A stretch of DNA of 64,000 nt, taken from the IMG/VR virus record IMGVR_UViG_3300014204_000113, positions 96,001 through 160,000 of that record. One strand, 5' to 3'. The translations under genes and the position numbers were made by a program. The notes below the pieces were generated by a model, which did no database searches, had not been told where the DNA came from, and saw nothing but the letters and a program-made list of their open reading frames with translations. Positions 12,601 through 48,472 of the stretch are shown piece by piece. The stretch's first letter is position 1, and every line of letters begins with the position of its first letter. Origin of the DNA: a virus (lineage: Duplodnaviria > Caudoviricetes).

Positions 12601-12843
12601 GTCAACCACCCTATAACTATTAAAAAGTTATGAACTTTAAGTTCGAGGTTGACCAGACTCAGCCAGAGTCGTAAGACTATCGGGCTACGTTAATTGAATC
12701 ATGACACCTTGGGATGCGCGCCAGTCCCATGCTCTGTCGGCCAACATTAAACAGACATACAGGGTTGAAGTCAGTGTGTTGGTTGTAAAAAGTTCAATTA
12801 ACTTTGTCGAGGCACACATCACCCTAGAAATAGGAGGCTCATT
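12601..12843 (+). ncRNA. omegaRNA (HEARO-like) scaffold associated with IscB
   Basis: GTCAACCACCC...GTTGACCAGACTCAG...CTACGTT...ACACCTTGGGATGC...CCAGTCCCA.GCTCTG...TTGTCGAGGC motifs directly upstream of iscB. Confidence 0.8.
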
Positions 12844-25215: not shown

Positions 25216-26032
25216 ATTTTTCCAAACGATAGGTAACGCGTATAATTCCGGCAGGAATGATTTAGTAATTCTAACTGCTGATATGGGAGCAAAAGCCCTA
25301 AACAAATTTAAAAAAGACCCAAACTTTCTTATCAATACAGGGCCTTGTGAGCAGTTAGTAATCTCTATGGGGGCTGGATTAGCATTACAGAAAAAACATC
25401 CTTATTGTTATGGCATCACACCATTTATTTCTTTAAGAGCATTAGAACAAATAAGAATAATGTGTTCTATGAATTTACCTGTAACTATAGTAGGAGTAGG
25501 AGCAGGCTTATCATATGACACGGCAGGGTTGACTCATCATGCGACAGAAGATTTGAACATAATTCGTTGCATCCCAAATATAACTATTTGTAATGTTTCT
25601 TCTTTAGAGATGGCGGAATATTATGCAAAAGTTTCTTTGGATTTTGACAAACCTCTGTATATCAGGCTCGATAAATATTCCACACACCTTGATAATGTAA
25701 CTGATTATGGTTGGAAGATAATCAAATATCCTAAGAAGAATTATCCATTTGTTGTTGCCACAGGTACTATTGTTGATTATTTATGGAGAAACTTGTCATA
25801 TGATTATGGTTTCATGGAGATATTTCAATTTCCTATTGATGAAAGAGTGGTCTCTTGTATCTTAAAGAATTTTGATGTTATTTCCGTTGAAGAAGGGTAC
25901 AAAGTAGGAGGATTGGGTGATTCGTTATCTTTTCTTCCTGATGTAAAGAAAATTGGTTTCAATAACTTCTGTGAAGCTAAACCAAGAGAAGAGTATTGGA
26001 AAATTTTACTAAGAGAGGTATTAAATGCTTAA
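25196..26032 (+). CDS. Transketolase-like enzyme, C-terminal (pyrimidine-binding) subunit
   Basis: LTADMG, GPCEQ, RALEQIR, GLTHHATED, EEGYKVGGLG. Confidence 0.88.
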   Translation: MTTQRDRFFQTIGNAYNSGRNDLVILTADMGAKALNKFKKDPNFLINTGPCEQLVISMGAGLALQKKHPYCYGITPFISLRALEQIRIMCSMNLPVTIVGVGAGLSYDTAGLTHHATEDLNIIRCIPNITICNVSSLEMAEYYAKVSLDFDKPLYIRLDKYSTHLDNVTDYGWKIIKYPKKNYPFVVATGTIVDYLWRNLSYDYGFMEIFQFPIDERVVSCILKNFDVISVEEGYKVGGLGDSLSFLPDVKKIGFNNFCEAKPREEYWKILLREVLNA

Positions 26033-27674
26033 AGACTCATTGACTCTTTACATTCCTACAATGAATCGCTCACAATTTCTCAATCGTTCCTTAAAATATT
26101 ATAATAACGTGAAATTTGATGGTACGATTCTCATTGGTGACAGCAGCAACAAAGAAGAAAAAAAGTTAAACGAAGAAGTAATAAATAAATATCCAGATTT
26201 AGATATTAATTACCATCATTTAAAACTCCCATCTGACCATCACGACGCATTAAAGACAAACCGACTTTTGGATAAAATTAAAACGCCATATATAACTTTT
26301 GCTGGCGATGATGATTTTCAAATACCTAACGGTCTTAAAATGTGTACTGAATTTCTTAATTATTCACCAGATTATGTTGCAGCACATGGTCATAGATTAA
26401 ATTTTACGATAGATAATACAGTAAATGGAAATGTTATAGCCTTGGATTCACACCCAGGATATGATTGGACTAATGAAGATGACCCAATTAAAAGATGGCA
26501 AGAATATCTGAGATGTGGAGTAGCTACTACATATTATGTACATAGGACAGAAAATTGGAAAAAGTATTATTCCTATTCACATCTAGCTAAAAGCAATTAC
26601 ATTGGTAATGAATTGATTCCATGTTCTTTATGTGTCTTGTCTGGTAAAATTAAAAGAATTGAATGTTTATCCACGGCATTTCAAAGAGATAATCCTATTA
26701 GAGAATTTTCATTTGTTAAGACTACTTTATGGGATTTGATTAATGGCGAATATTGGAGAGATTCTGTAAGGTTTTTTGAAGAAGCAGTTACGTCTATATT
26801 GTCTGATAAATTTGAAGTTAAACAAATTAAAGAATTGTTTTATCAAGAATTTTGGTATCACTGTCTGTTGATTATGAATGGGCAATTCAATGGCAGATAT
26901 GGTGAAAAAAAAGATGAACCAACTACACGAATTTTAGACTTATCTACCATGAGTGAAGATGACGATTTCTATCCGATCCATCAAGTTTTGATAGAAAATT
27001 CTAATGCTGAAATTCTTAGTAATTATTTGAAGAAGATACAAAAATTGGATATAAGAGAAGGTTCAACAAATGACGATTTTATGACATTAATAAACTTAGC
27101 AAAATCTGTGGAAAAGAATGGGATACAAGCAGTGGAAATTGGTTCTTGGAAAGGTGGGACTGCTGGCGCAATAGGACAAGTGGTTAAGGAAAATAAAGGT
27201 AAGTTGTATTGTTGCGACCCTTGGGCGAACGAAACTTGCGATGCAGACCATTCAGATATATTGGAAATATTTAAAAAGAATATCTCTGAATTAGAGTTAG
27301 AAGACAATGTTGTTATTATAAGAGAGCCATCACGAGAAGCGTTTAAACATTTTGAAGATGAATCTCTTGATATTGTGTTTCTGGATGGGCTTCATATGTA
27401 TCCATATATTTATCCTGATGTTGAAAACTTCTATCCTAAAGTCAAGAAAGGCGGAATAATTGCTGGACATGATTTAAATGTACGATATGAAACTCTTAAT
27501 AGTGAACAATGGAAAGAAATAGATGAAAATATAAATGTTAATTGTGTCACTGTTAAATCATTAGGTAGACAAGTCCATTGCGGAGTAGCAAGGGCTGTTT
27601 ATGACTACTTTGGCAGTGATTATAATTCTTCTGACAACCCAATGAACGCGGTTTGGTGGGTGGTAAAAGAATAA
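26025..27674 (+). CDS. GT-A glycosyltransferase (paralog 3) fused to a class I SAM methyltransferase
   Basis: IPTMNR, GDSS, FAGDDDF; C-terminal VEIGSWKGGT, FLDGLH, GGIIAGHD. Confidence 0.85.
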   Translation: MLKDSLTLYIPTMNRSQFLNRSLKYYNNVKFDGTILIGDSSNKEEKKLNEEVINKYPDLDINYHHLKLPSDHHDALKTNRLLDKIKTPYITFAGDDDFQIPNGLKMCTEFLNYSPDYVAAHGHRLNFTIDNTVNGNVIALDSHPGYDWTNEDDPIKRWQEYLRCGVATTYYVHRTENWKKYYSYSHLAKSNYIGNELIPCSLCVLSGKIKRIECLSTAFQRDNPIREFSFVKTTLWDLINGEYWRDSVRFFEEAVTSILSDKFEVKQIKELFYQEFWYHCLLIMNGQFNGRYGEKKDEPTTRILDLSTMSEDDDFYPIHQVLIENSNAEILSNYLKKIQKLDIREGSTNDDFMTLINLAKSVEKNGIQAVEIGSWKGGTAGAIGQVVKENKGKLYCCDPWANETCDADHSDILEIFKKNISELELEDNVVIIREPSREAFKHFEDESLDIVFLDGLHMYPYIYPDVENFYPKVKKGGIIAGHDLNVRYETLNSEQWKEIDENINVNCVTVKSLGRQVHCGVARAVYDYFGSDYNSSDNPMNAVWWVVKE

Positions 27675-27886
27675 ATGAACACTTATATATTTTTTAGAGA
27701 ATTAAATAAATATATATTTAATGAAAAGTGCGATGAAAAAAGATCATGTAAAGATTGTGATTATCAACAATGTTGTTTCTATACTAAATGTTTGAGAAGA
27801 TATAGCAACAAACATATTTTAGAAACATTTAAAATTGTATATGATTTATAAAAAATTATTTCTAATCTACTAAGAAGGAATTATTA

Positions 27887-29272
27887 ATGATTGATTTTTT
27901 GTTTATCAAACCTGGAAATCAAAAAGTCTTATATGCAGAAACTTCTGCTTTTAATTTAACGGCAATTGAGCCTCCATTTTGGCCACTACTTCTTGCATCG
28001 TTTCTCACAAGACAAAACATTCCTTCTAGAATTATAGACTTGGAAGTCCAAAGCATTGATTCTTTGAATCACATGTTAATAGACAACAAACCAAAATTTA
28101 CAGTAATTTGTGTCAGCGGGCATAATCCAAACGCGAGTATCATGAGCATGGCTGGTTTAGATGATTTATGCAAAAATATAAAAGATGTTTGTGCAACTAC
28201 TAAAATCATTCTTCATGGTTTATATCCCTCTTCTTGTCCAACAAAAGTTTTAGAAAAACATAAATTGGTAGATGAAATTCTAATGAAGGAGGGTTTTTTA
28301 AGTCTAGGTCATTTGATGGGCTACAAAAGAACAGAACCTATATCAATAAATGATATAGGAAAAATTAATTGGTCTTTAATAGACATAGCTAAATACCGCG
28401 CTCATAATTGGCATCTGTTTGGAAACATTCACAATAGGTCTCCATATGGAATTGCTTTCACTTCTTTTGGTTGTCCTCACAATTGCGATTTTTGTTGTGT
28501 AAATTTAATGTATAGTAAAGTACAATTAAGAGATATAGATTTGGTATTCCAAGACATTAAAAATCTATATGATAGAGGCGTAAAAAATTTTAAATTTATG
28601 GACGAGTTGTTTTTAATGCACAAGGGTAGGGTACAACAATTATGCTCAATGTTAATTGCTAATAAAATGCAAGACATCAATGGTTGGGCTTACGCTAGAA
28701 CAGATTCTATAGATGAAGATATAATTACACTAATGAAAAATGCTGGAGTGAAATGGCTAGGGCTGGGTTATGAGAGTGGTTCGCAATTAATATTAGATTC
28801 TTCTGATAAAAAACAAAGTTTAAAAAAAGCATATCAAGCTACAGAAATATGCAAAAAGGTTGGGATGAATATTTGTGGTAATTTCGTATTTGGGTTGGCA
28901 GATGATAATTATGAAACCATGGAAGCCACTTCTAAATTAGCTATTGACTTACAACCAGAATGGGCTAATTATAATGTGGTTTTTGCTTTTCCTAGGACGA
29001 AGTTATATGATAAGGTGAAAAATGAGCCTTGGTTTAATGAACCAACTGAGTATGAGCAGTATTCTCAACATGGCTATTCCTGCACACCAATGGGAACAAA
29101 ATATCTTAGCCCAAAAGAAGTCTTGGAATTTAAGGATGAAGCATTCAGAGAATTTTACCAGAACGAGAATTATCTGAGGATGTTAGAGGTAAAATTTGGG
29201 GTTGAAACCAGAGAATATGTAGCAAATTCACTAATTTACTATCCAAAAAGAAAACTTTATGATTTGACCTAA
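27887..29272 (+). CDS. B12-binding radical SAM protein
   Basis: SFGCPHNCDFC, DELF, GYESG, with an N-terminal cobalamin-binding-like domain. Confidence 0.88.
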   Translation: MIDFLFIKPGNQKVLYAETSAFNLTAIEPPFWPLLLASFLTRQNIPSRIIDLEVQSIDSLNHMLIDNKPKFTVICVSGHNPNASIMSMAGLDDLCKNIKDVCATTKIILHGLYPSSCPTKVLEKHKLVDEILMKEGFLSLGHLMGYKRTEPISINDIGKINWSLIDIAKYRAHNWHLFGNIHNRSPYGIAFTSFGCPHNCDFCCVNLMYSKVQLRDIDLVFQDIKNLYDRGVKNFKFMDELFLMHKGRVQQLCSMLIANKMQDINGWAYARTDSIDEDIITLMKNAGVKWLGLGYESGSQLILDSSDKKQSLKKAYQATEICKKVGMNICGNFVFGLADDNYETMEATSKLAIDLQPEWANYNVVFAFPRTKLYDKVKNEPWFNEPTEYEQYSQHGYSCTPMGTKYLSPKEVLEFKDEAFREFYQNENYLRMLEVKFGVETREYVANSLIYYPKRKLYDLT

Positions 29273-29278
29273 AAGGAC

Positions 29279-29307
29279 TTGCTGGCCAAGAAATTTTGAA
29301 GTATAAT
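29279..29307 (+). promoter_or_regulatory. Sigma70-like promoter upstream of the segment containing array A3 and the RAMP-like gene
   Basis: TTGCTG-17 nt-TATAAT. Confidence 0.6.
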
Positions 29308-29326
29308 CTTAATAAGGAGAAGAAAT

Positions 29327-29533
29327 TTGACAGAAAAATTAATTTCAATGAAGGGTGGTAACAAACCTTCAATAACAAGAGAAACAATAAGATTAATGAA
29401 AGAGGAATTACCATACATCCTTGAATATTTTCCTATTTATGCTGAAATGACAAAAGCTAAATTTGAGGCTTTAAAAGAGAAAGGGTTTACTGAAATTCAG
29501 GCATTAGAATTGTGCAAGGGTTTTATGTTATAA
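29327..29533 (+). CDS. Hypothetical protein
   Basis: AAGGAG RBS; GFTEIQALEL motif. Confidence 0.6.
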   Translation: MTEKLISMKGGNKPSITRETIRLMKEELPYILEYFPIYAEMTKAKFEALKEKGFTEIQALELCKGFML

Positions 29534-29542
29534 GGAGAAATT

Positions 29543-29725
29543 ATGGGTGATTATGCTTTGCCTTCTATTTATGAAAGATGCGGCTGGAAAAAAGACGAGG
29601 TTTATCTTCATTCCTTGCTTGAAAGATGTGCAGAAGGACTTGCAGCAGCAACTCAATATGGCGCAGGTAATTGGTCTGAACTAATTAAAGAAATTTATAG
29701 GGTGATAAATGTCCAAGAAGACTAA
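29543..29725 (+). CDS. Hypothetical protein
   Basis: AAGGAG RBS, short ORF. Confidence 0.55.
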   Translation: MGDYALPSIYERCGWKKDEVYLHSLLERCAEGLAAATQYGAGNWSELIKEIYRVINVQED

Positions 29726-30410
29726 ATCCAAGAAACCTAAAGGTATCTCTCCAGAAGAATTCTTAAAAAACCTTAACACTCTAGATTTGTTGGATGGGAA
29801 TTTTTCTGATAATGATGCCTTAGCTCTTATGAAATTAGCTAAAGAATCAATCAAAGATAAAAGTGGACCTTTTAATTTTTTAGAAATTGGAACATGGAAG
29901 GGGAAATCACTTATTTGTCTCTCTGTTATAATAAGTAAATTCCCAGAAAGTAAAATTTTTGCTATAGACCATTTTAAAGGTACATTTGGAACAAACGAAG
30001 AACAACTTGCTAAAACTAATGACATATTGACAACTTGTAAAAATAATTTAAAAATAGTAAATGCTAGTGATATTGTTTGTCTATTAAATATGAATTACTT
30101 TGATGCAATCAAAATATTAAAGCAAAAATTTTTTGACTTTATATATATTGATATGGACAATAGTTATCAAGTAATGAAAAGTGTTTTGTGTGATTCTAGA
30201 AATTTAATTAAAAGTGGAGGAATGATATGTGGAAGAAATTTAATTGCAGATTATCTAGATGTAAAAGAAATTATAGACTCTAATCTTAATAAAGAATATT
30301 TAGAAGAATCAAAAATGCATCCTGGAATTATACGATCTGTCTATGATGTTTTTGCAAATAAATATCAAAAAATGGATAATAGTTCTTTTTGGTATTGGAT
30401 TAATAATTAA
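29709..30410 (+). CDS. Class I SAM-dependent methyltransferase (Methyltransf_24-like)
   Basis: LEIGTWKGKS, IDHF, FIYID, GGMICG; paralogous to the C-terminus of 26025-27674. Confidence 0.8.
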   Translation: MSKKTKSKKPKGISPEEFLKNLNTLDLLDGNFSDNDALALMKLAKESIKDKSGPFNFLEIGTWKGKSLICLSVIISKFPESKIFAIDHFKGTFGTNEEQLAKTNDILTTCKNNLKIVNASDIVCLLNMNYFDAIKILKQKFFDFIYIDMDNSYQVMKSVLCDSRNLIKSGGMICGRNLIADYLDVKEIIDSNLNKEYLEESKMHPGIIRSVYDVFANKYQKMDNSSFWYWINN

Positions 30411-30435
30411 TAATATTTGGTAATATCCAACTGGA

Positions 30436-30530
30436 TATTGTGTTGTAATGTTCTGTGTTGTGTGGCGCTGTAGTGTAATGTTAAGTCCTGTAGTGTGGCG
30501 TAGTGTGTTGTTATGTGTTCTATTCTAAGG
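30436..30530 (+). repeat. Array A3: 19 pentamer units with mainly TGT constant triplet plus variable NN, directly upstream of the RAMP-like gene
   Basis: TATTG TGTTG TAATG TTCTG TGTTG TGTGG CGCTG TAGTG TAATG TTAAG TCCTG TAGTG TGGCG TAGTG TGTTG TTATG TGTTC TATTC TAAGG, then hairpin GGATTC-tgtatt-GAATCC (30531-30548). Confidence 0.9.
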
Positions 30531-30574
30531 GGATTCTGTATTGAATCCAAAATAAATTTAAGGAGAATTAAATA

Positions 30575-31141
30575 ATGAAAATTAAAGTTACAATTCAAGG
30601 AACAGTTCCAATTTTATTTAATCGTTTTGCAGAAGAGAATGAAGTTAAAGTTGCTTCTGGAATTAATCCAGTTCAAGGAGGACAAAGAGGAACGCCTAGA
30701 GAACAAGCAGAAAAGAAACTATATCAAGACGTGGATGGGAATTTGTTTCTTCCAAGTCCTATGTTATTTTCTTGTTTAGTAGATGCTGGTAAATTCCATA
30801 AAGTGGGAAGAAATAAAGTTACGACTCAGAAGACTTCTTTAGTTCCTGCCGGTATATCTGTTGAAGAATTAATCATTCCGTTTAATACTAAAGATTGGGA
30901 AATTGATTCTAGAAGCGTTGTGATACCATCTACTGGTGGTAGAATCATGTGTCACAGACCCCGGCTTGATGAGTGGCAATTAACTTTCACTTTGGATGTT
31001 GATACAACAATGTTTGATCCTAAGTTTGTTAGGACTCTTATGGATGATGCAGGCAAGAAATGTGGCTTGGGTGATTATAGACCTAATCGTAAAGGGCCAT
31101 TTGGTAAATTTGTTGTGATTAATTGGGAAGAAGAAAAATAA
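30575..31141 (+). CDS. Stand-alone RAMP/Cas7-like RNA-binding protein (candidate effector of the pentamer arrays)
   Basis: N-terminal strand IKVTIQGTVPILF, LFLPSPMLFSCL (compare the IPGSSxKG helix of Cas7-group RAMPs), C-terminal Gly-rich loop GLGDYRPNRKGPFGKF; AAGGAG RBS; no other cas genes in the window. Confidence 0.7.
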   Translation: MKIKVTIQGTVPILFNRFAEENEVKVASGINPVQGGQRGTPREQAEKKLYQDVDGNLFLPSPMLFSCLVDAGKFHKVGRNKVTTQKTSLVPAGISVEELIIPFNTKDWEIDSRSVVIPSTGGRIMCHRPRLDEWQLTFTLDVDTTMFDPKFVRTLMDDAGKKCGLGDYRPNRKGPFGKFVVINWEEEK

Positions 31142-32330: not shown

Positions 32331-32777
32331 TTGATGGACTTTCTTGTTCTCTCAAGGCAACAATCTGAATTGATTGACCCAACTAAAAGCCATATTATCA
32401 TATCAATTACAGACCCATTTGATGTTCCTGCCAATTTATTTCCGAATGATAATTGCAAAGGAATATTGCAATTATCATTCCATGACATTGATTCAGAAGT
32501 TATAGCAGACAAACATAAATTGGAATTGTTTACGAGAGAACAAGCAAGAAAAATTCTTGATTTTGTTGATGAAAATATAAACAATATCGAATTGATTATC
32601 GTAGCGTGTGAGGCTGGTATCAGTAGATCATCATCTGTTGCCGCTTTTTTAAGTGAGATATATAATGGACATGATTCTGGTTTCTTTAGAACTCATATTC
32701 CAAATAGGTTTGTTTTTAAACAATTGATGTATGAACATGAGAATATAAATATAGAGGACATGTTTTTAAACAATTGA
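32331..32777 (+). CDS. Dual-specificity/tyrosine phosphatase-like protein
   Basis: CEAGISRS (CX5R P-loop), LSFHD, PNRFV. Confidence 0.8.
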   Translation: MMDFLVLSRQQSELIDPTKSHIIISITDPFDVPANLFPNDNCKGILQLSFHDIDSEVIADKHKLELFTREQARKILDFVDENINNIELIIVACEAGISRSSSVAAFLSEIYNGHDSGFFRTHIPNRFVFKQLMYEHENINIEDMFLNN

Positions 32778-32810
32778 TGTATGAACATGAGAATATAAAT
32801 ATAGAGGACA
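32711..32810. repeat. Exact 50-bp tandem duplication
   Basis: TGTTTTTAAACAATTGATGTATGAACATGAGAATATAAATATAGAGGACA occurs twice, followed by TGTTT. Confidence 0.95.
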
Positions 32811-33011
32811 TGTTTGTATAAAATCAACTGAATAAAGGAGGAGATGATGATTAATTGTTTATGTGATAAGATTAATTCATTTATAAGATTTATTATATTT
32901 ATTCTAACCTTATTTCTACTTGCTTTTGGAGGATTATTTGTTTTAATTGGACAAGGAATCTTATTTGTCGCTGAAAAAACAATTGTTTGTTCATTAAAGG
33001 AGAAGTAGTTA

Positions 33012-47155: not shown

Positions 47156-48472
47156 TCAAATATCCAACATATTTGCTATCTTATTTTTGTTATAATATCT
47201 TTTGTTTACCATTTCTGAATAAAAAGATTGATGCCATTCTCTATCAAAATTGGCCTTGGTGTTACAAGAGGTGCATAATGTAATTAAATTCTTGGGATGG
47301 CAATTTAATTTATTATAATCAAGATGGTGAATTGTTAATTTATTATCATATTTTTTATTACATAGTGGATTAAGACACATATAATTATCACGCTCTTTAA
47401 TACTTTCTTTGTATTCTTTATCTTTCCACACACAACAATATGGTTCATAAGATTTACCACCTTGCCAATTATAATTGTTTGAACCACTTTGTGAAATAGA
47501 TGATTTTATACTGCCACATTTTCTACATCTATGACCTTGAGAAAAACTATTATAAGAAATAAAAGATATATTTCCACATTCACATTTATATTTTAATTTT
47601 TGATGACATCCTTTATATTCATTAAATAATGGAACACAACCACCTTCTATAAATTTTTCTTTAACAAATTCTAAACTATGTCTTATTTTATCTGAAAATT
47701 TTATAATCCCACATTCTTTACATCTATGGCCTCGCATAAGATTATCAAATGATGTATAAGAAATATTTCCACAACTGCATTGATATTTTAATTTTGTTCT
47801 AGCATCAATATATTCATTAAAGAGAGGGATGCAACCACCTTCTACAAATTTATTTTTTACATATTCAAGACTGTGTTTGCTATTGATATTGCTTCTTTCA
47901 ATTCCACATTTTCTACATCTATGACCATTACAGAAACCATTGAATGTGATTTGTGATTCATTCCCACAACTACATATATATTTTAATTTTTGTTGTGCAT
48001 TTATATATTCATTAAATAATGGGATACATCCTTCTTCTATAAACTTATCTCTTACATATTCTATATCCAATCTTTTCTTTTCTGAAATTCTTTTACCAAC
48101 ACAATTTGAACATCTTGATCCAGATTTAAAACTCGAAAAAGTTATAAAAGATATATTTCCACAATTACATCTATATCTCATTTTAGTGTGGTTATTTTTA
48201 TAATTATCTTCTAAACATTCACACCCATTATCAATAAAAACTTTTTTGACATAGTTAAAATCTAATTTATAAAGTTCTTTATTTTTATCAATATTACAAA
48301 ATTTACATCCACTACCATTTTTTAAACCATTAAGACTAATTTTTGTTATATGACCATTATTACATTTACATTCAAGTGGAATTCTAGCATACTTATATTC
48401 ATTTTCTAATAAAACAAATCCTCTATTCTTAAATTCCCCCCTTGCTATATCTATAGTTATAATTTTAGACAT
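47156..48472 (-). CDS. Free-standing HNH homing endonuclease with tandem Cys-rich repeats
   Basis: Several repeats of EYVK.KFIEGGC.PLFNEY....KLKY.C.CGN.S.I.F..F..GHRC.KCG; NYNWQGG; ERDNYMC...TIHHLDYNKLNCHPKNLITLCTSCN. Confidence 0.8.
   Translation of the reverse strand: MSKIITIDIARGEFKNRGFVLLENEYKYARIPLECKCNNGHITKISLNGLKNGSGCKFCNIDKNKELYKLDFNYVKKVFIDNGCECLEDNYKNNHTKMRYRCNCGNISFITFSSFKSGSRCSNCVGKRISEKKRLDIEYVRDKFIEEGCIPLFNEYINAQQKLKYICSCGNESQITFNGFCNGHRCRKCGIERSNINSKHSLEYVKNKFVEGGCIPLFNEYIDARTKLKYQCSCGNISYTSFDNLMRGHRCKECGIIKFSDKIRHSLEFVKEKFIEGGCVPLFNEYKGCHQKLKYKCECGNISFISYNSFSQGHRCRKCGSIKSSISQSGSNNYNWQGGKSYEPYCCVWKDKEYKESIKERDNYMCLNPLCNKKYDNKLTIHHLDYNKLNCHPKNLITLCTSCNTKANFDREWHQSFYSEMVNKRYYNKNKIANMLDI

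What the first reader, a model, noticed from the sequence alone, without database searches (positions are those of the whole stretch)
30422..30574. Variant TGT-type array (A3) in the 5' leader of the RAMP-like gene
Seen: 19 pentamers. Of the constant triplets 13 are TGT; the others are GGC, AGT, CGT, TCT, TCT and GGG. NN string: AT GT AA TC GT GT GC AG AA TA CC AG GG AG GT TA GT AT AA. It is bracketed by a 5' hairpin (AATATCC-aact-GGATATT) and a short 3' hairpin (GGATTC/GAATCC) that ends ~11 nt before the RBS. It ends in AT,AA like A1 and A2b, and A1 contains one TGT unit, which suggests common ancestry. Inference: either a lower-affinity site that lets the protein autoregulate its own mRNA once the GGT guides are saturated, or a guide with a relaxed NGY scaffold.
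Basis: partly seen in the sequence, partly recalled or inferred. Interest (0 to 1): 0.8.

Follow-up and report, generated by a model that had tools for sequence, protein, structure and literature searches.

The report
Phage VIPR guide RNA with UGU scaffold
The TGT-type five-base repeat in front of the small Cas7-like gene is a guide RNA of the recently described phage VIPR system. It uses a U-G-U spacer triplet instead of G-G-Y, and it spells, by the known two-read-one-skipped code, the version of the neighbouring methyltransferase gene carried by rival phages.

Summary
From 30439 to 30528 there are 18 pentamers in strict register, 13 of them TGT-NN, far beyond chance, and this is the only such array in the 188-kb phage genome. 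It is most likely not an autoregulatory decoy.

It is a VIPR guide RNA (vrRNA), probably serving the adjacent Vipr paralogue (30575-31141). Read by the published 1-nt-skip rule, units 5-18 match 28 of 28 bases, in frame, in a diverged allele of the neighbouring Methyltransf_24 gene on two short metagenome contigs. One of them clearly lacks the cassette. The phage's own copy scores 22/38 and the sister phage's 21/38.

Among 97 relatives of this Vipr, 93 carry xGY arrays whose first triplet position is relaxed (G 62%, T 19%, A 12%, C 8%). The residue that reads G1 in SUSP1 Vipr (H17) is Asn in 100 of the 107 loci aligned.

The class is already published: "YNNNG" repeats in the VIPR paper and "WGT/NN" motifs in a later preprint. 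This scan had already called the GGT arrays of the same genome VIPR guides aimed at rival alleles.

What is new is modest: a natural target for a non-GGY guide, and three Vipr paralogues with three scaffold types in one phage. Binding and expression are untested.

The parts
30422..30439 (+). 5' hairpin AATATCC-AACT-GGATATT. Its 3' arm overlaps the first, non-canonical unit GATAT (30434-30438).
   Evidence: Sequence. It is present in the MFE and centroid folds. Its function is unknown. No sigma-70 promoter or terminator stands out.
30439..30528 (+). vrRNA repeat tract A3: 18 pentamers, 13 of them TGT-NN, plus GGC, AGT, CGT, TCT and TCT.
   Evidence: Register and counts. Shuffle test. The tract is not notably structured (z = -0.97 for 30411-30580).
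30454..30523 (+). Guide core, units 5-18. Its NN dinucleotides match the rival methyltransferase allele at 28/28 (L185) and 27/28 (L186).
   Evidence: Gapped NNx alignment, in frame, with the skipped base at the codon's third position. Only the 1-nt skip works.
30529..30548 (+). 3' tail: GGGG, then hairpin GGATTC-TGTATT-GAATCC (30531-30548).
   Evidence: Sequence and fold. GGATTC also occurs in the tails of close relatives' arrays (CCAAGGATTC..., L078).
30560..30565 (+). Shine-Dalgarno AAGGAG of vipr3.
   Evidence: Sequence. In relatives the array tail (A/G)CCAAGGAG itself supplies this motif.
30575..31141 (+). vipr3: a 188-aa Vipr (minimal RAMP/Cas7-like) protein, the likely partner of A3.
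   Evidence: PDB 36pp 'SUSP1 Vipr protein', E 1.2e-6 alone and 5.6e-13 with a clade profile. phrog_4652. G-loop CGLGDYR; R138, D177 and R179 equivalents kept; H17 -> N16.
29709..30410 (+). Resident Methyltransf_24 gene. Its site 29913-29968 is the homologue of the guide's target, but it matches only 22/38.
   Evidence: Pfam. Score at the site. The gene is 71% identical in DNA to the sister phage's copy, against 83-91% for the flanks.

Best explanation
A3 is a guide RNA gene (vrRNA) of a VIPR system, and the adjacent 188-aa gene encodes its Vipr protein.

Inferred from the SUSP1 structures: Vipr protomers coat the transcript one per pentamer. They hold the constant triplet (here U-G-U) and present the two variable bases of each unit.

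Shown here: the variable bases, read as NN-skip-NN-skip, spell a 14-codon stretch (VVASKYPSGRVYVI) of a diverged allele of the Methyltransf_24 gene that lies next to the cassette. That allele is found in related phages, at least one of which has no cassette at this site. The resident copy and the sister phage's copy mismatch too much to count as targets.

Inferred: the Vipr3-A3 complex binds and silences that gene in competing relatives during co-infection.

The U at triplet position 1 reflects a Vipr clade in which this position is not read strictly. That is shown comparatively, and it corresponds to the published 'YNNNG' or 'WGT/NN' variants. The array sits in the vipr leader because that is a usual place for it in this clade.
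For: Vipr membership:
- vipr3 matches PDB 36pp (SUSP1 Vipr) at E 5.6e-13 with a clade profile.
- The contact residues R138, D177 and R179 and the aromatic at 178 are conserved.

Array:
- Strict 5-nt register, 13/18 units TGT, p far below the shuffles.

Code and target:
- A protein search with the neighbouring methyltransferase, made without reference to the guide, returned alleles P0003 and P0004 carrying ...ASKYPSGRVYVID.
- Their DNA (L185, L186) matches the guide at 31/38 overall, and at 28/28 and 27/28 over units 5-18, in frame.
- Only the 1-nt skip works; skips of 0, 2 and 3 give 20-21. Permuting the unit order gives at most 24.
- There is no self-target. The best own-genome score is 24/38, the resident site scores 22/38 and the sister's site 21/38.

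Cassette:
- The sister phage L011 lacks A3 + vipr3 between the same flanking genes.
- In L185 the methyltransferase is followed directly by the phosphoesterase gene.

Clade:
- 93 of 97 distinct relatives have xGY arrays; 58 have one directly upstream of vipr.
- Position 1 is G 62%, T 19%, A 12%, C 8%, and the T share rises as GC falls (rho -0.62).
- In the same AT-rich genome the other arrays keep G in 165/171 units.
- H17, which reads G1 in SUSP1 (paper), is N in 100 of 107 clade loci, duplicates included, but H in Vipr1, Vipr2, the SUSP1-like phage and LESphi2.
- Position 3 is U in A3 (15/16) but C in 85% of clade units. Vipr3 alone has M72/C173 in the pocket that holds this base. The only other non-N72 locus, L183, also has U (13/14).

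Second example:
- An AGC-type guide of a Mesorhizobium prophage (L159) hits a tape-measure-like gene at 28/32 and 26/32, again only with skip 1.
Against: - No RNA data: no listed sequencing run is RNA, so transcription, processing and the RNA ends are unknown.
- Binding of Vipr3 to a UGU scaffold is not shown. In SUSP1, GGY>AGY abolished silencing (paper), so the tolerance is inferred from comparison only.
- The H17->N link is essentially one clade-level event. It has a counter-example: L083 has H yet 12/15 T.
- The first four units (AT, GT, AA, TC) do not match L185, and only TC matches L186. No fully matching allele was found.
- The target contigs are short (807 and 955 bp), so it is unknown whether those phages carry a Vipr3 cassette elsewhere.
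- No vap accessory gene accompanies this cassette.
- The AT/AA-GGG-hairpin ending resembles the GGT arrays of the same genome, so use by Vipr1 cannot be excluded.
Confidence: 0.8

Rival explanations
1. A3 is mainly a cis-regulatory operator. Vipr protein binds the UGU tract in the leader of its own mRNA with low affinity and shuts off its own translation once the GGU guides are saturated.
For: The tract lies in the 5' leader and its tail ends 11 nt before the SD. In relatives the array tail CCAAGGAG overlaps the SD, so a filament could reach the ribosome-binding site.
Against: - A decoy has no need to encode a 28/28 in-frame match to a rival gene under the guide code.
- Many relatives have the same kind of array downstream of vipr, or several arrays separated by hammerhead ribozymes. 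That fits released guides rather than operators.
- The GGU guides most likely belong to other paralogues (Vipr1, Vipr2).
Confidence: 0.08
2. A3 is a real guide, but it is loaded in trans by one of the GGY-reading paralogues (Vipr1 or Vipr2). The position next to vipr3 is incidental.
For: The last units and the tail (xxxAT xxxAA GGG + hairpin) look like those of the GGT arrays. Solo vrRNAs that use a distant Vipr are known (paper 10.64898/2026.10.15.759431).
Against: - Vipr1 and Vipr2 keep H17, and their arrays keep G1 in 165/171 units in the same genome.
- GGY>AGY abolishes function in SUSP1.
- A3 and vipr3 are present or absent together relative to the sister phage.
- Vipr3-clade genes carry non-G arrays as a rule.
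- Vipr3's base-3 pocket differs from its clade in step with the U at position 3.
Confidence: 0.1
3. A3 is a decayed, non-functional remnant of a GGT array.
For: Five of the 18 units depart from TGT. The two last units have C at the otherwise invariant second position. The first units have no match in the target.
Against: - Thirteen independent G-to-T changes at the same position, with the register and a 28/28 target match preserved, are not decay.
- The stretch is letter-identical in landfill and groundwater assemblies from different studies.
- vipr3 is intact and keeps the clade's invariant residues.
Confidence: 0.02

Closest known systems
VIPR type II systems (Escherichia phage SUSP1, Pseudomonas fulva prophage): Vipr + GGY/NN vrRNA; bioRxiv 10.64898/2026.04.26.720920, structures 10.64898/2026.04.26.720927
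   Same: A homologous Vipr protein (PDB 36pp hit). A 5-nt repeat with a constant triplet and variable NN. The 1-nt-skip code, with skipped bases falling on codon third positions. A phage-borne system that targets competing phage genes. A vrRNA upstream of vipr, and a structured 3' tail.
   Different: The triplet is UGU, not GGY. The G1-reading His17 is Asn. There is a single array and no vap gene in the cassette. The tail is a simple hairpin, not the SUSP1 pseudoknot. The target is the rival allele of the gene next door rather than a satellite.
Non-canonical VIPR repeats: 'YNNNG' (Methods of 10.64898/2026.04.26.720920) and 'WGT/NN, TGH/NN' clusters (10.64898/2026.10.21.760802)
   Same: The repeat class is the same: the first triplet base is not G, while G2 and Y3 are kept, next to a Vipr-like fold. 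A3 fits both YNNNG and WGT/NN.
   Different: Those reports describe motifs and neighbouring folds only. I found no decoded natural target for such arrays in their text, and no mention of several scaffold types with several Vipr paralogues in one genome.
GGT/GGC vrRNAs of the same phage
   Same: The logic is the same: the guide sits beside the phage's own diverged copy of the gene it targets, and it matches the allele of relatives that lack the cassette.
   Different: Those arrays have G at position 1 and lie near, or are assigned to, Vipr1 and Vipr2. A3 is the only U-type array and has its own paralogue.
Class 1 CRISPR Cas7 backbone filaments
   Same: A RAMP fold with a G-loop and thumb. One protomer binds per fixed RNA period, and bases flipped by the thumb interrupt pairing.
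   Different: The period is 5 nt with 3 bases sequestered (against 6 nt with 1). There are no repeat-spacer array, no adaptation genes and no Cas5/6/8/11 partners.

Membership tests
VIPR system | A Vipr protein: a minimal RAMP with RRM core, thumb and C-terminal G-loop, homologous to SUSP1 Vipr. | tested here: met
   PDB 36pp_D at E 1.2e-6 and 5.6e-13 with a profile. G-loop GLGDYR and the R138, D177 and R179 equivalents are present.
VIPR system | A vrRNA: a tandem 5-nt repeat, roughly 9-16 or more units, with a constant trinucleotide alternating with hypervariable NN. | tested here: met
   18 units in strict register, with varied NN.
VIPR system (canonical, types with GGY) | The constant trinucleotide is GGY. 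| tested here: not met
   Position 1 is T in 13 and G in 1 of the 16 xGY units. The array fits the published alternative YNNNG and WGT/NN.
VIPR system | NN dinucleotides specify a target by the 1-nt-skip rule (at least 80% NN match to a natural sequence). | tested here: met
   L185 and L186 score 31/38 (82%), with the core at 28/28 and 27/28. Other skips give 20-21.
VIPR system | No self-targeting at or above 80% NN on the guide's own contig. | tested here: met
   The best own-genome score is 24/38. The resident homologous site scores 22/38.
VIPR system | A conserved structured 3' tail after the repeat tract. | tested here: inconclusive
   A 6-bp hairpin follows GGGG. The GGATTC motif is shared with tails of close relatives, but no covariation test was done.
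VIPR system | An accessory vap gene next to vipr (typical, not universal). | tested here: not met
   Relative to the sister phage, the inserted cassette holds only A3 + vipr3. The 101-aa ORF and the phosphoesterase downstream are also present without the cassette.
VIPR system | The vrRNA is expressed and co-purifies with Vipr, and the complex silences DNA targets. | not testable with these tools
   No RNA run holds the stretch. Binding assays are needed.

The most novel reading that the evidence does not exclude
The identity of the scaffold triplet works as an address label. This one phage runs three mutually orthogonal Vipr/vrRNA pairs: GGU with Vipr1, GGC with Vipr2 and UGU with Vipr3. A few pocket residues set the specificity: His17 versus Asn for base 1, and residues 72/173 for base 3. 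If so, guides are sorted among paralogues and rivals cannot hijack them with decoy vrRNAs of another type.
Probability: 0.3. Interest if true: 0.6.

Novelty: new member of a known kind. Interest (0 to 1): 0.4.

Why it matters
VIPR was described only in 2026, and its code was established on GGY guides. This case gives a natural, decoded target for a guide whose first scaffold base is U. A second case from a Mesorhizobium prophage has A at that position. Together they suggest that the two-read-one-skipped code does not depend on that base.

The work also points to candidate specificity residues: position 17 for base 1, and positions 72 and 173 for base 3. These could be tested directly, and they would be useful for building orthogonal programmable Vipr/guide pairs.

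Biologically, it adds a further instance of a phage that aims a guide at the rival allele of the gene beside the guide. This scan had already seen that pattern for the GGT arrays of the same genome.

Tried and rejected
- Self-target search: the best match in the phage's own genome is 24/38 under any skip, so there is no self-target.
- Exact NNx pattern scans found no target. The 16-unit pattern gave 0 hits in IMG/VR. The 14-unit and 10-unit patterns gave 0 hits in the JGI metagenome contigs.
- Two 8-unit half patterns in IMG/VR gave 12 and 44 hits. About 38 of the 44 fall in one conserved gene start (MKHFELVKEYxYPSGSVYV...). None extends beyond the searched half (at most 26/38), so I treated them as chance half-matches.
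- Methyltransferase relatives in IMG/VR (L012-L021) score at most 22/38.
- I tested whether triplet position 1 copies or pairs with the skipped target base. It agrees at 8/14 in L185, 6/14 in L186 (A3 is mostly T) and 3/13 for the L159 guide. That is chance level, so I rejected the idea.
- H17/N as the sole determinant of G1 is inconclusive. Of the five H-bearing clade members, L176 has G in 40/41 units, but L083 has T in 12/15.
- There is no Rfam family over A3; the only hit in the window is a HEARO RNA elsewhere. No sigma-70-like promoter stands out and there is no intrinsic terminator at A3. No tRNA was found.
- No RNA holder is listed among public runs, so expression could not be examined.
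- Supplementary tables of the VIPR paper are not held, so the clade could not be assigned to one of types I-VII. Hammerhead type II ribozymes between arrays in L164 suggest a type with ribozyme-interspersed arrays.
- I made no structure prediction or complex prediction.

Full report
**What is there**

The intergenic stretch between a Methyltransf_24 gene (29709-30410) and a 188-aa ORF (30575-31141) holds the following elements:
- a small hairpin at 30422-30439;
- 18 pentamers in perfect register at 30439-30528;
- GGGG plus a 6-bp hairpin at 30529-30548;
- an AAGGAG at 30560-30565.

Thirteen units are TGT-NN. The others are GGC, AGT, CGT, TCT and TCT. The only slip is that the sixth odd triplet of the 19 listed units is GAT (unit 1, inside the 5' hairpin) rather than GGG.

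Thirteen in-register TGT per 18 units compares with a mean of 2.4 and a maximum of 6 in 2000 shuffles, and with a maximum of 5 elsewhere in the genome.

The whole 188-kb genome has 13 such period-5 arrays. In the other 12, position 1 is G in 165 of 171 units. In A3 it is G in 1 of 16.

**What system it is**

Earlier notes of this scan pointed to the VIPR papers, which I read. VIPR consists of a minimal RAMP protein (Vipr) plus vrRNAs made of GGY/NN repeats. The NN bases pair with DNA while every third target base is skipped.

The ORF behind A3 is a Vipr:
- It matches the solved SUSP1 Vipr (PDB 36pp) at E 1.2e-6 alone and 5.6e-13 as a clade profile.
- It carries the G-loop CGLGDYR.
- It is one of three paralogues in this genome. 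It is 37% identical to Vipr1 and 27% to Vipr2.

**Is A3 a guide?**

Read as NN-x, A3 has no good match in its own genome; the best score is 24/38. Exact pattern scans of IMG/VR and the JGI metagenomes also found nothing usable.

An earlier first-reader note had seen a weak likeness to the neighbouring methyltransferase. I therefore searched for that protein's relatives, without using the guide. Two of the five relatives found (P0003 and P0004) read ...ASKYPSGRVYVID at the homologous place. Their DNA gives the following:
- L185 is an 807-bp ENA contig and L186 is a 955-bp Logan contig.
- Both match the guide at 31/38.
- Units 5-18 match at 28/28 in L185 and 27/28 in L186.
- The match is in frame, with skipped bases on codon third positions.

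Only the 1-nt skip works; skips of 0, 2 and 3 give 20-21. Permuting the unit order never exceeds 24. The four GGT arrays of the window do not match these contigs.

The phage's own site (29913-29968) scores 22/38. It is one of only 12 positions in the genome that reach 22. The sister phage's site scores 21/38. Both are below the 80% criterion of the paper.

**Context**

A sister phage (IMGVR_UViG_3300029288_001872, locus L011) is 83-91% identical in the flanks, but it differs at this spot:
- It has no A3 + vipr3. A 243-bp stretch with a small zinc-ribbon ORF takes its place.
- Its methyltransferase is only 71% identical in DNA.

In L185 the methyltransferase is followed directly by the phosphoesterase gene, so there is no cassette there either.

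A3 + vipr3 are letter-identical in landfill and groundwater assemblies. One groundwater run also holds the cassette-less junction at low depth.

The guide therefore sits beside the resident, mismatching copy of its target and matches the allele of relatives. Earlier follow-ups reported the same logic for the GGT arrays of this genome.

**Why TGT?**

I collected 97 distinct relatives of Vipr3. The array survey gave the following:
- 93 have xGY arrays nearby.
- 58 have one directly upstream of vipr, usually ending 14-21 nt before the start codon.
- Position 1 is G 62%, T 19%, A 12%, C 8%.
- The T share rises as GC content falls (rho -0.62).

Base composition alone is not the cause, because the H17-type arrays in this same 32%-GC genome keep G.

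In SUSP1, G1 is read by H17 and D177. The equivalent of H17 is Asn in Vipr3 and in 100 of the 107 clade loci aligned (duplicates included). It is His in Vipr1, Vipr2, a SUSP1-like Felixounavirus and LESphi2. D177, R138 and R179 are kept. The link is not clean, since L083 has His and still has 12/15 T.

Position 3 is U in A3 (15/16) but C in 85% of clade units, even in the 35%-GC marine members. Vipr3 alone has M72/C173 in the pocket that holds this base. The only other locus without N72 (L183) also uses U, in 13/14 units. This fits co-adaptation of A3 and Vipr3.

The relaxed class is already in the literature. The Methods of the VIPR paper list 'YNNNG' repeats, and a later preprint lists 'WGT/NN' and 'TGH/NN' clusters.

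**A second check of the code on a non-G guide**

An AGC-rich array of a Mesorhizobium prophage of the same clade (L159) matches the start of a tape-measure-like ORF in two genomes of that family. The scores are 28/32 and 26/32, again only with skip 1, and the reversed-pattern control found nothing. Position 1 does not copy the skipped base (3/13), so it is not a third reading base.

**What remains inferred**

- Transcription, processing and loading on Vipr3 are not shown. No RNA run holds the stretch.
- Use by Vipr1 or Vipr2, or a side effect on vipr3 translation, cannot be excluded.
- The first four units have no matching allele yet.
- The clade could not be placed in types I-VII. Hammerhead type II ribozymes between arrays in L164 point to a type with ribozyme-interspersed arrays.

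**Verdict**

A3 is a real feature and a bona fide-looking VIPR guide of the published non-GGY class. It is aimed at a rival allele of the neighbouring gene. It is a new member of a known kind, with modest added value for the code and for specificity determinants.

Noticed in passing
window 12601-12822 (+): A full-length HEARO (IscB-type omega) RNA, 136 bits against Rfam RF02033. The phage therefore also carries an OMEGA-type RNA-guided element.
   Followed up: no
L011:9493-9700 (sister phage, the site where the cassette is absent): Where this phage has A3 + vipr3, the sister phage has a small ORF of about 68 aa with CxxC-type cysteines (zinc-ribbon-like). Which of the two states is ancestral is unknown.
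   Followed up: partly
L164:1230-1294 and 1362-1426: Two type II hammerhead ribozymes (Rfam RF02276) lie between successive vrRNA arrays upstream of a Vipr3-clade gene in a Desulfovibrionaceae MAG.
   Followed up: partly
L159:2106-2185; targets L188 and L187: An AGC-rich vrRNA of a Mesorhizobium sp. Root552 prophage decodes to the N-terminus of a tape-measure-like ORF in two genomes of the same family (28/32 and 26/32, skip 1 only).
   Followed up: yes
L078, L085, L164, L180 and other clade loci (array ends): Arrays of the Vipr3 clade end with a unit whose NN is AA, followed by (A/G)CCAAGGA. Upstream of vipr this handle doubles as the Shine-Dalgarno sequence.
   Followed up: partly
L034-L077 (IMG/VR contigs, mostly 100-215 kb): A widespread phage gene starts with MKHFELVKEYxYPSGSVYVLYNK. 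It matches the 3' half of the A3 code exactly, but not the 5' half. I judged this a chance half-match.
   Followed up: partly
window 32711-32815: A perfect 50-nt tandem repeat (2.1 copies, 100% match) lies downstream of array A4.
   Followed up: no
window 47503-48061: A tandem repeat of about 195 nt (2-3 copies, 72-75% match). It appears to be coding and lies on the minus strand.
   Followed up: no
window 26025-30410: The methyltransferase next to A3 is the most diverged gene of the neighbourhood against the sister phage: 71% DNA identity, compared with 83-91% for the flanks. It lies at the end of a sugar-modification gene cluster that includes radical SAM and glycosyltransferase genes.
   Followed up: partly
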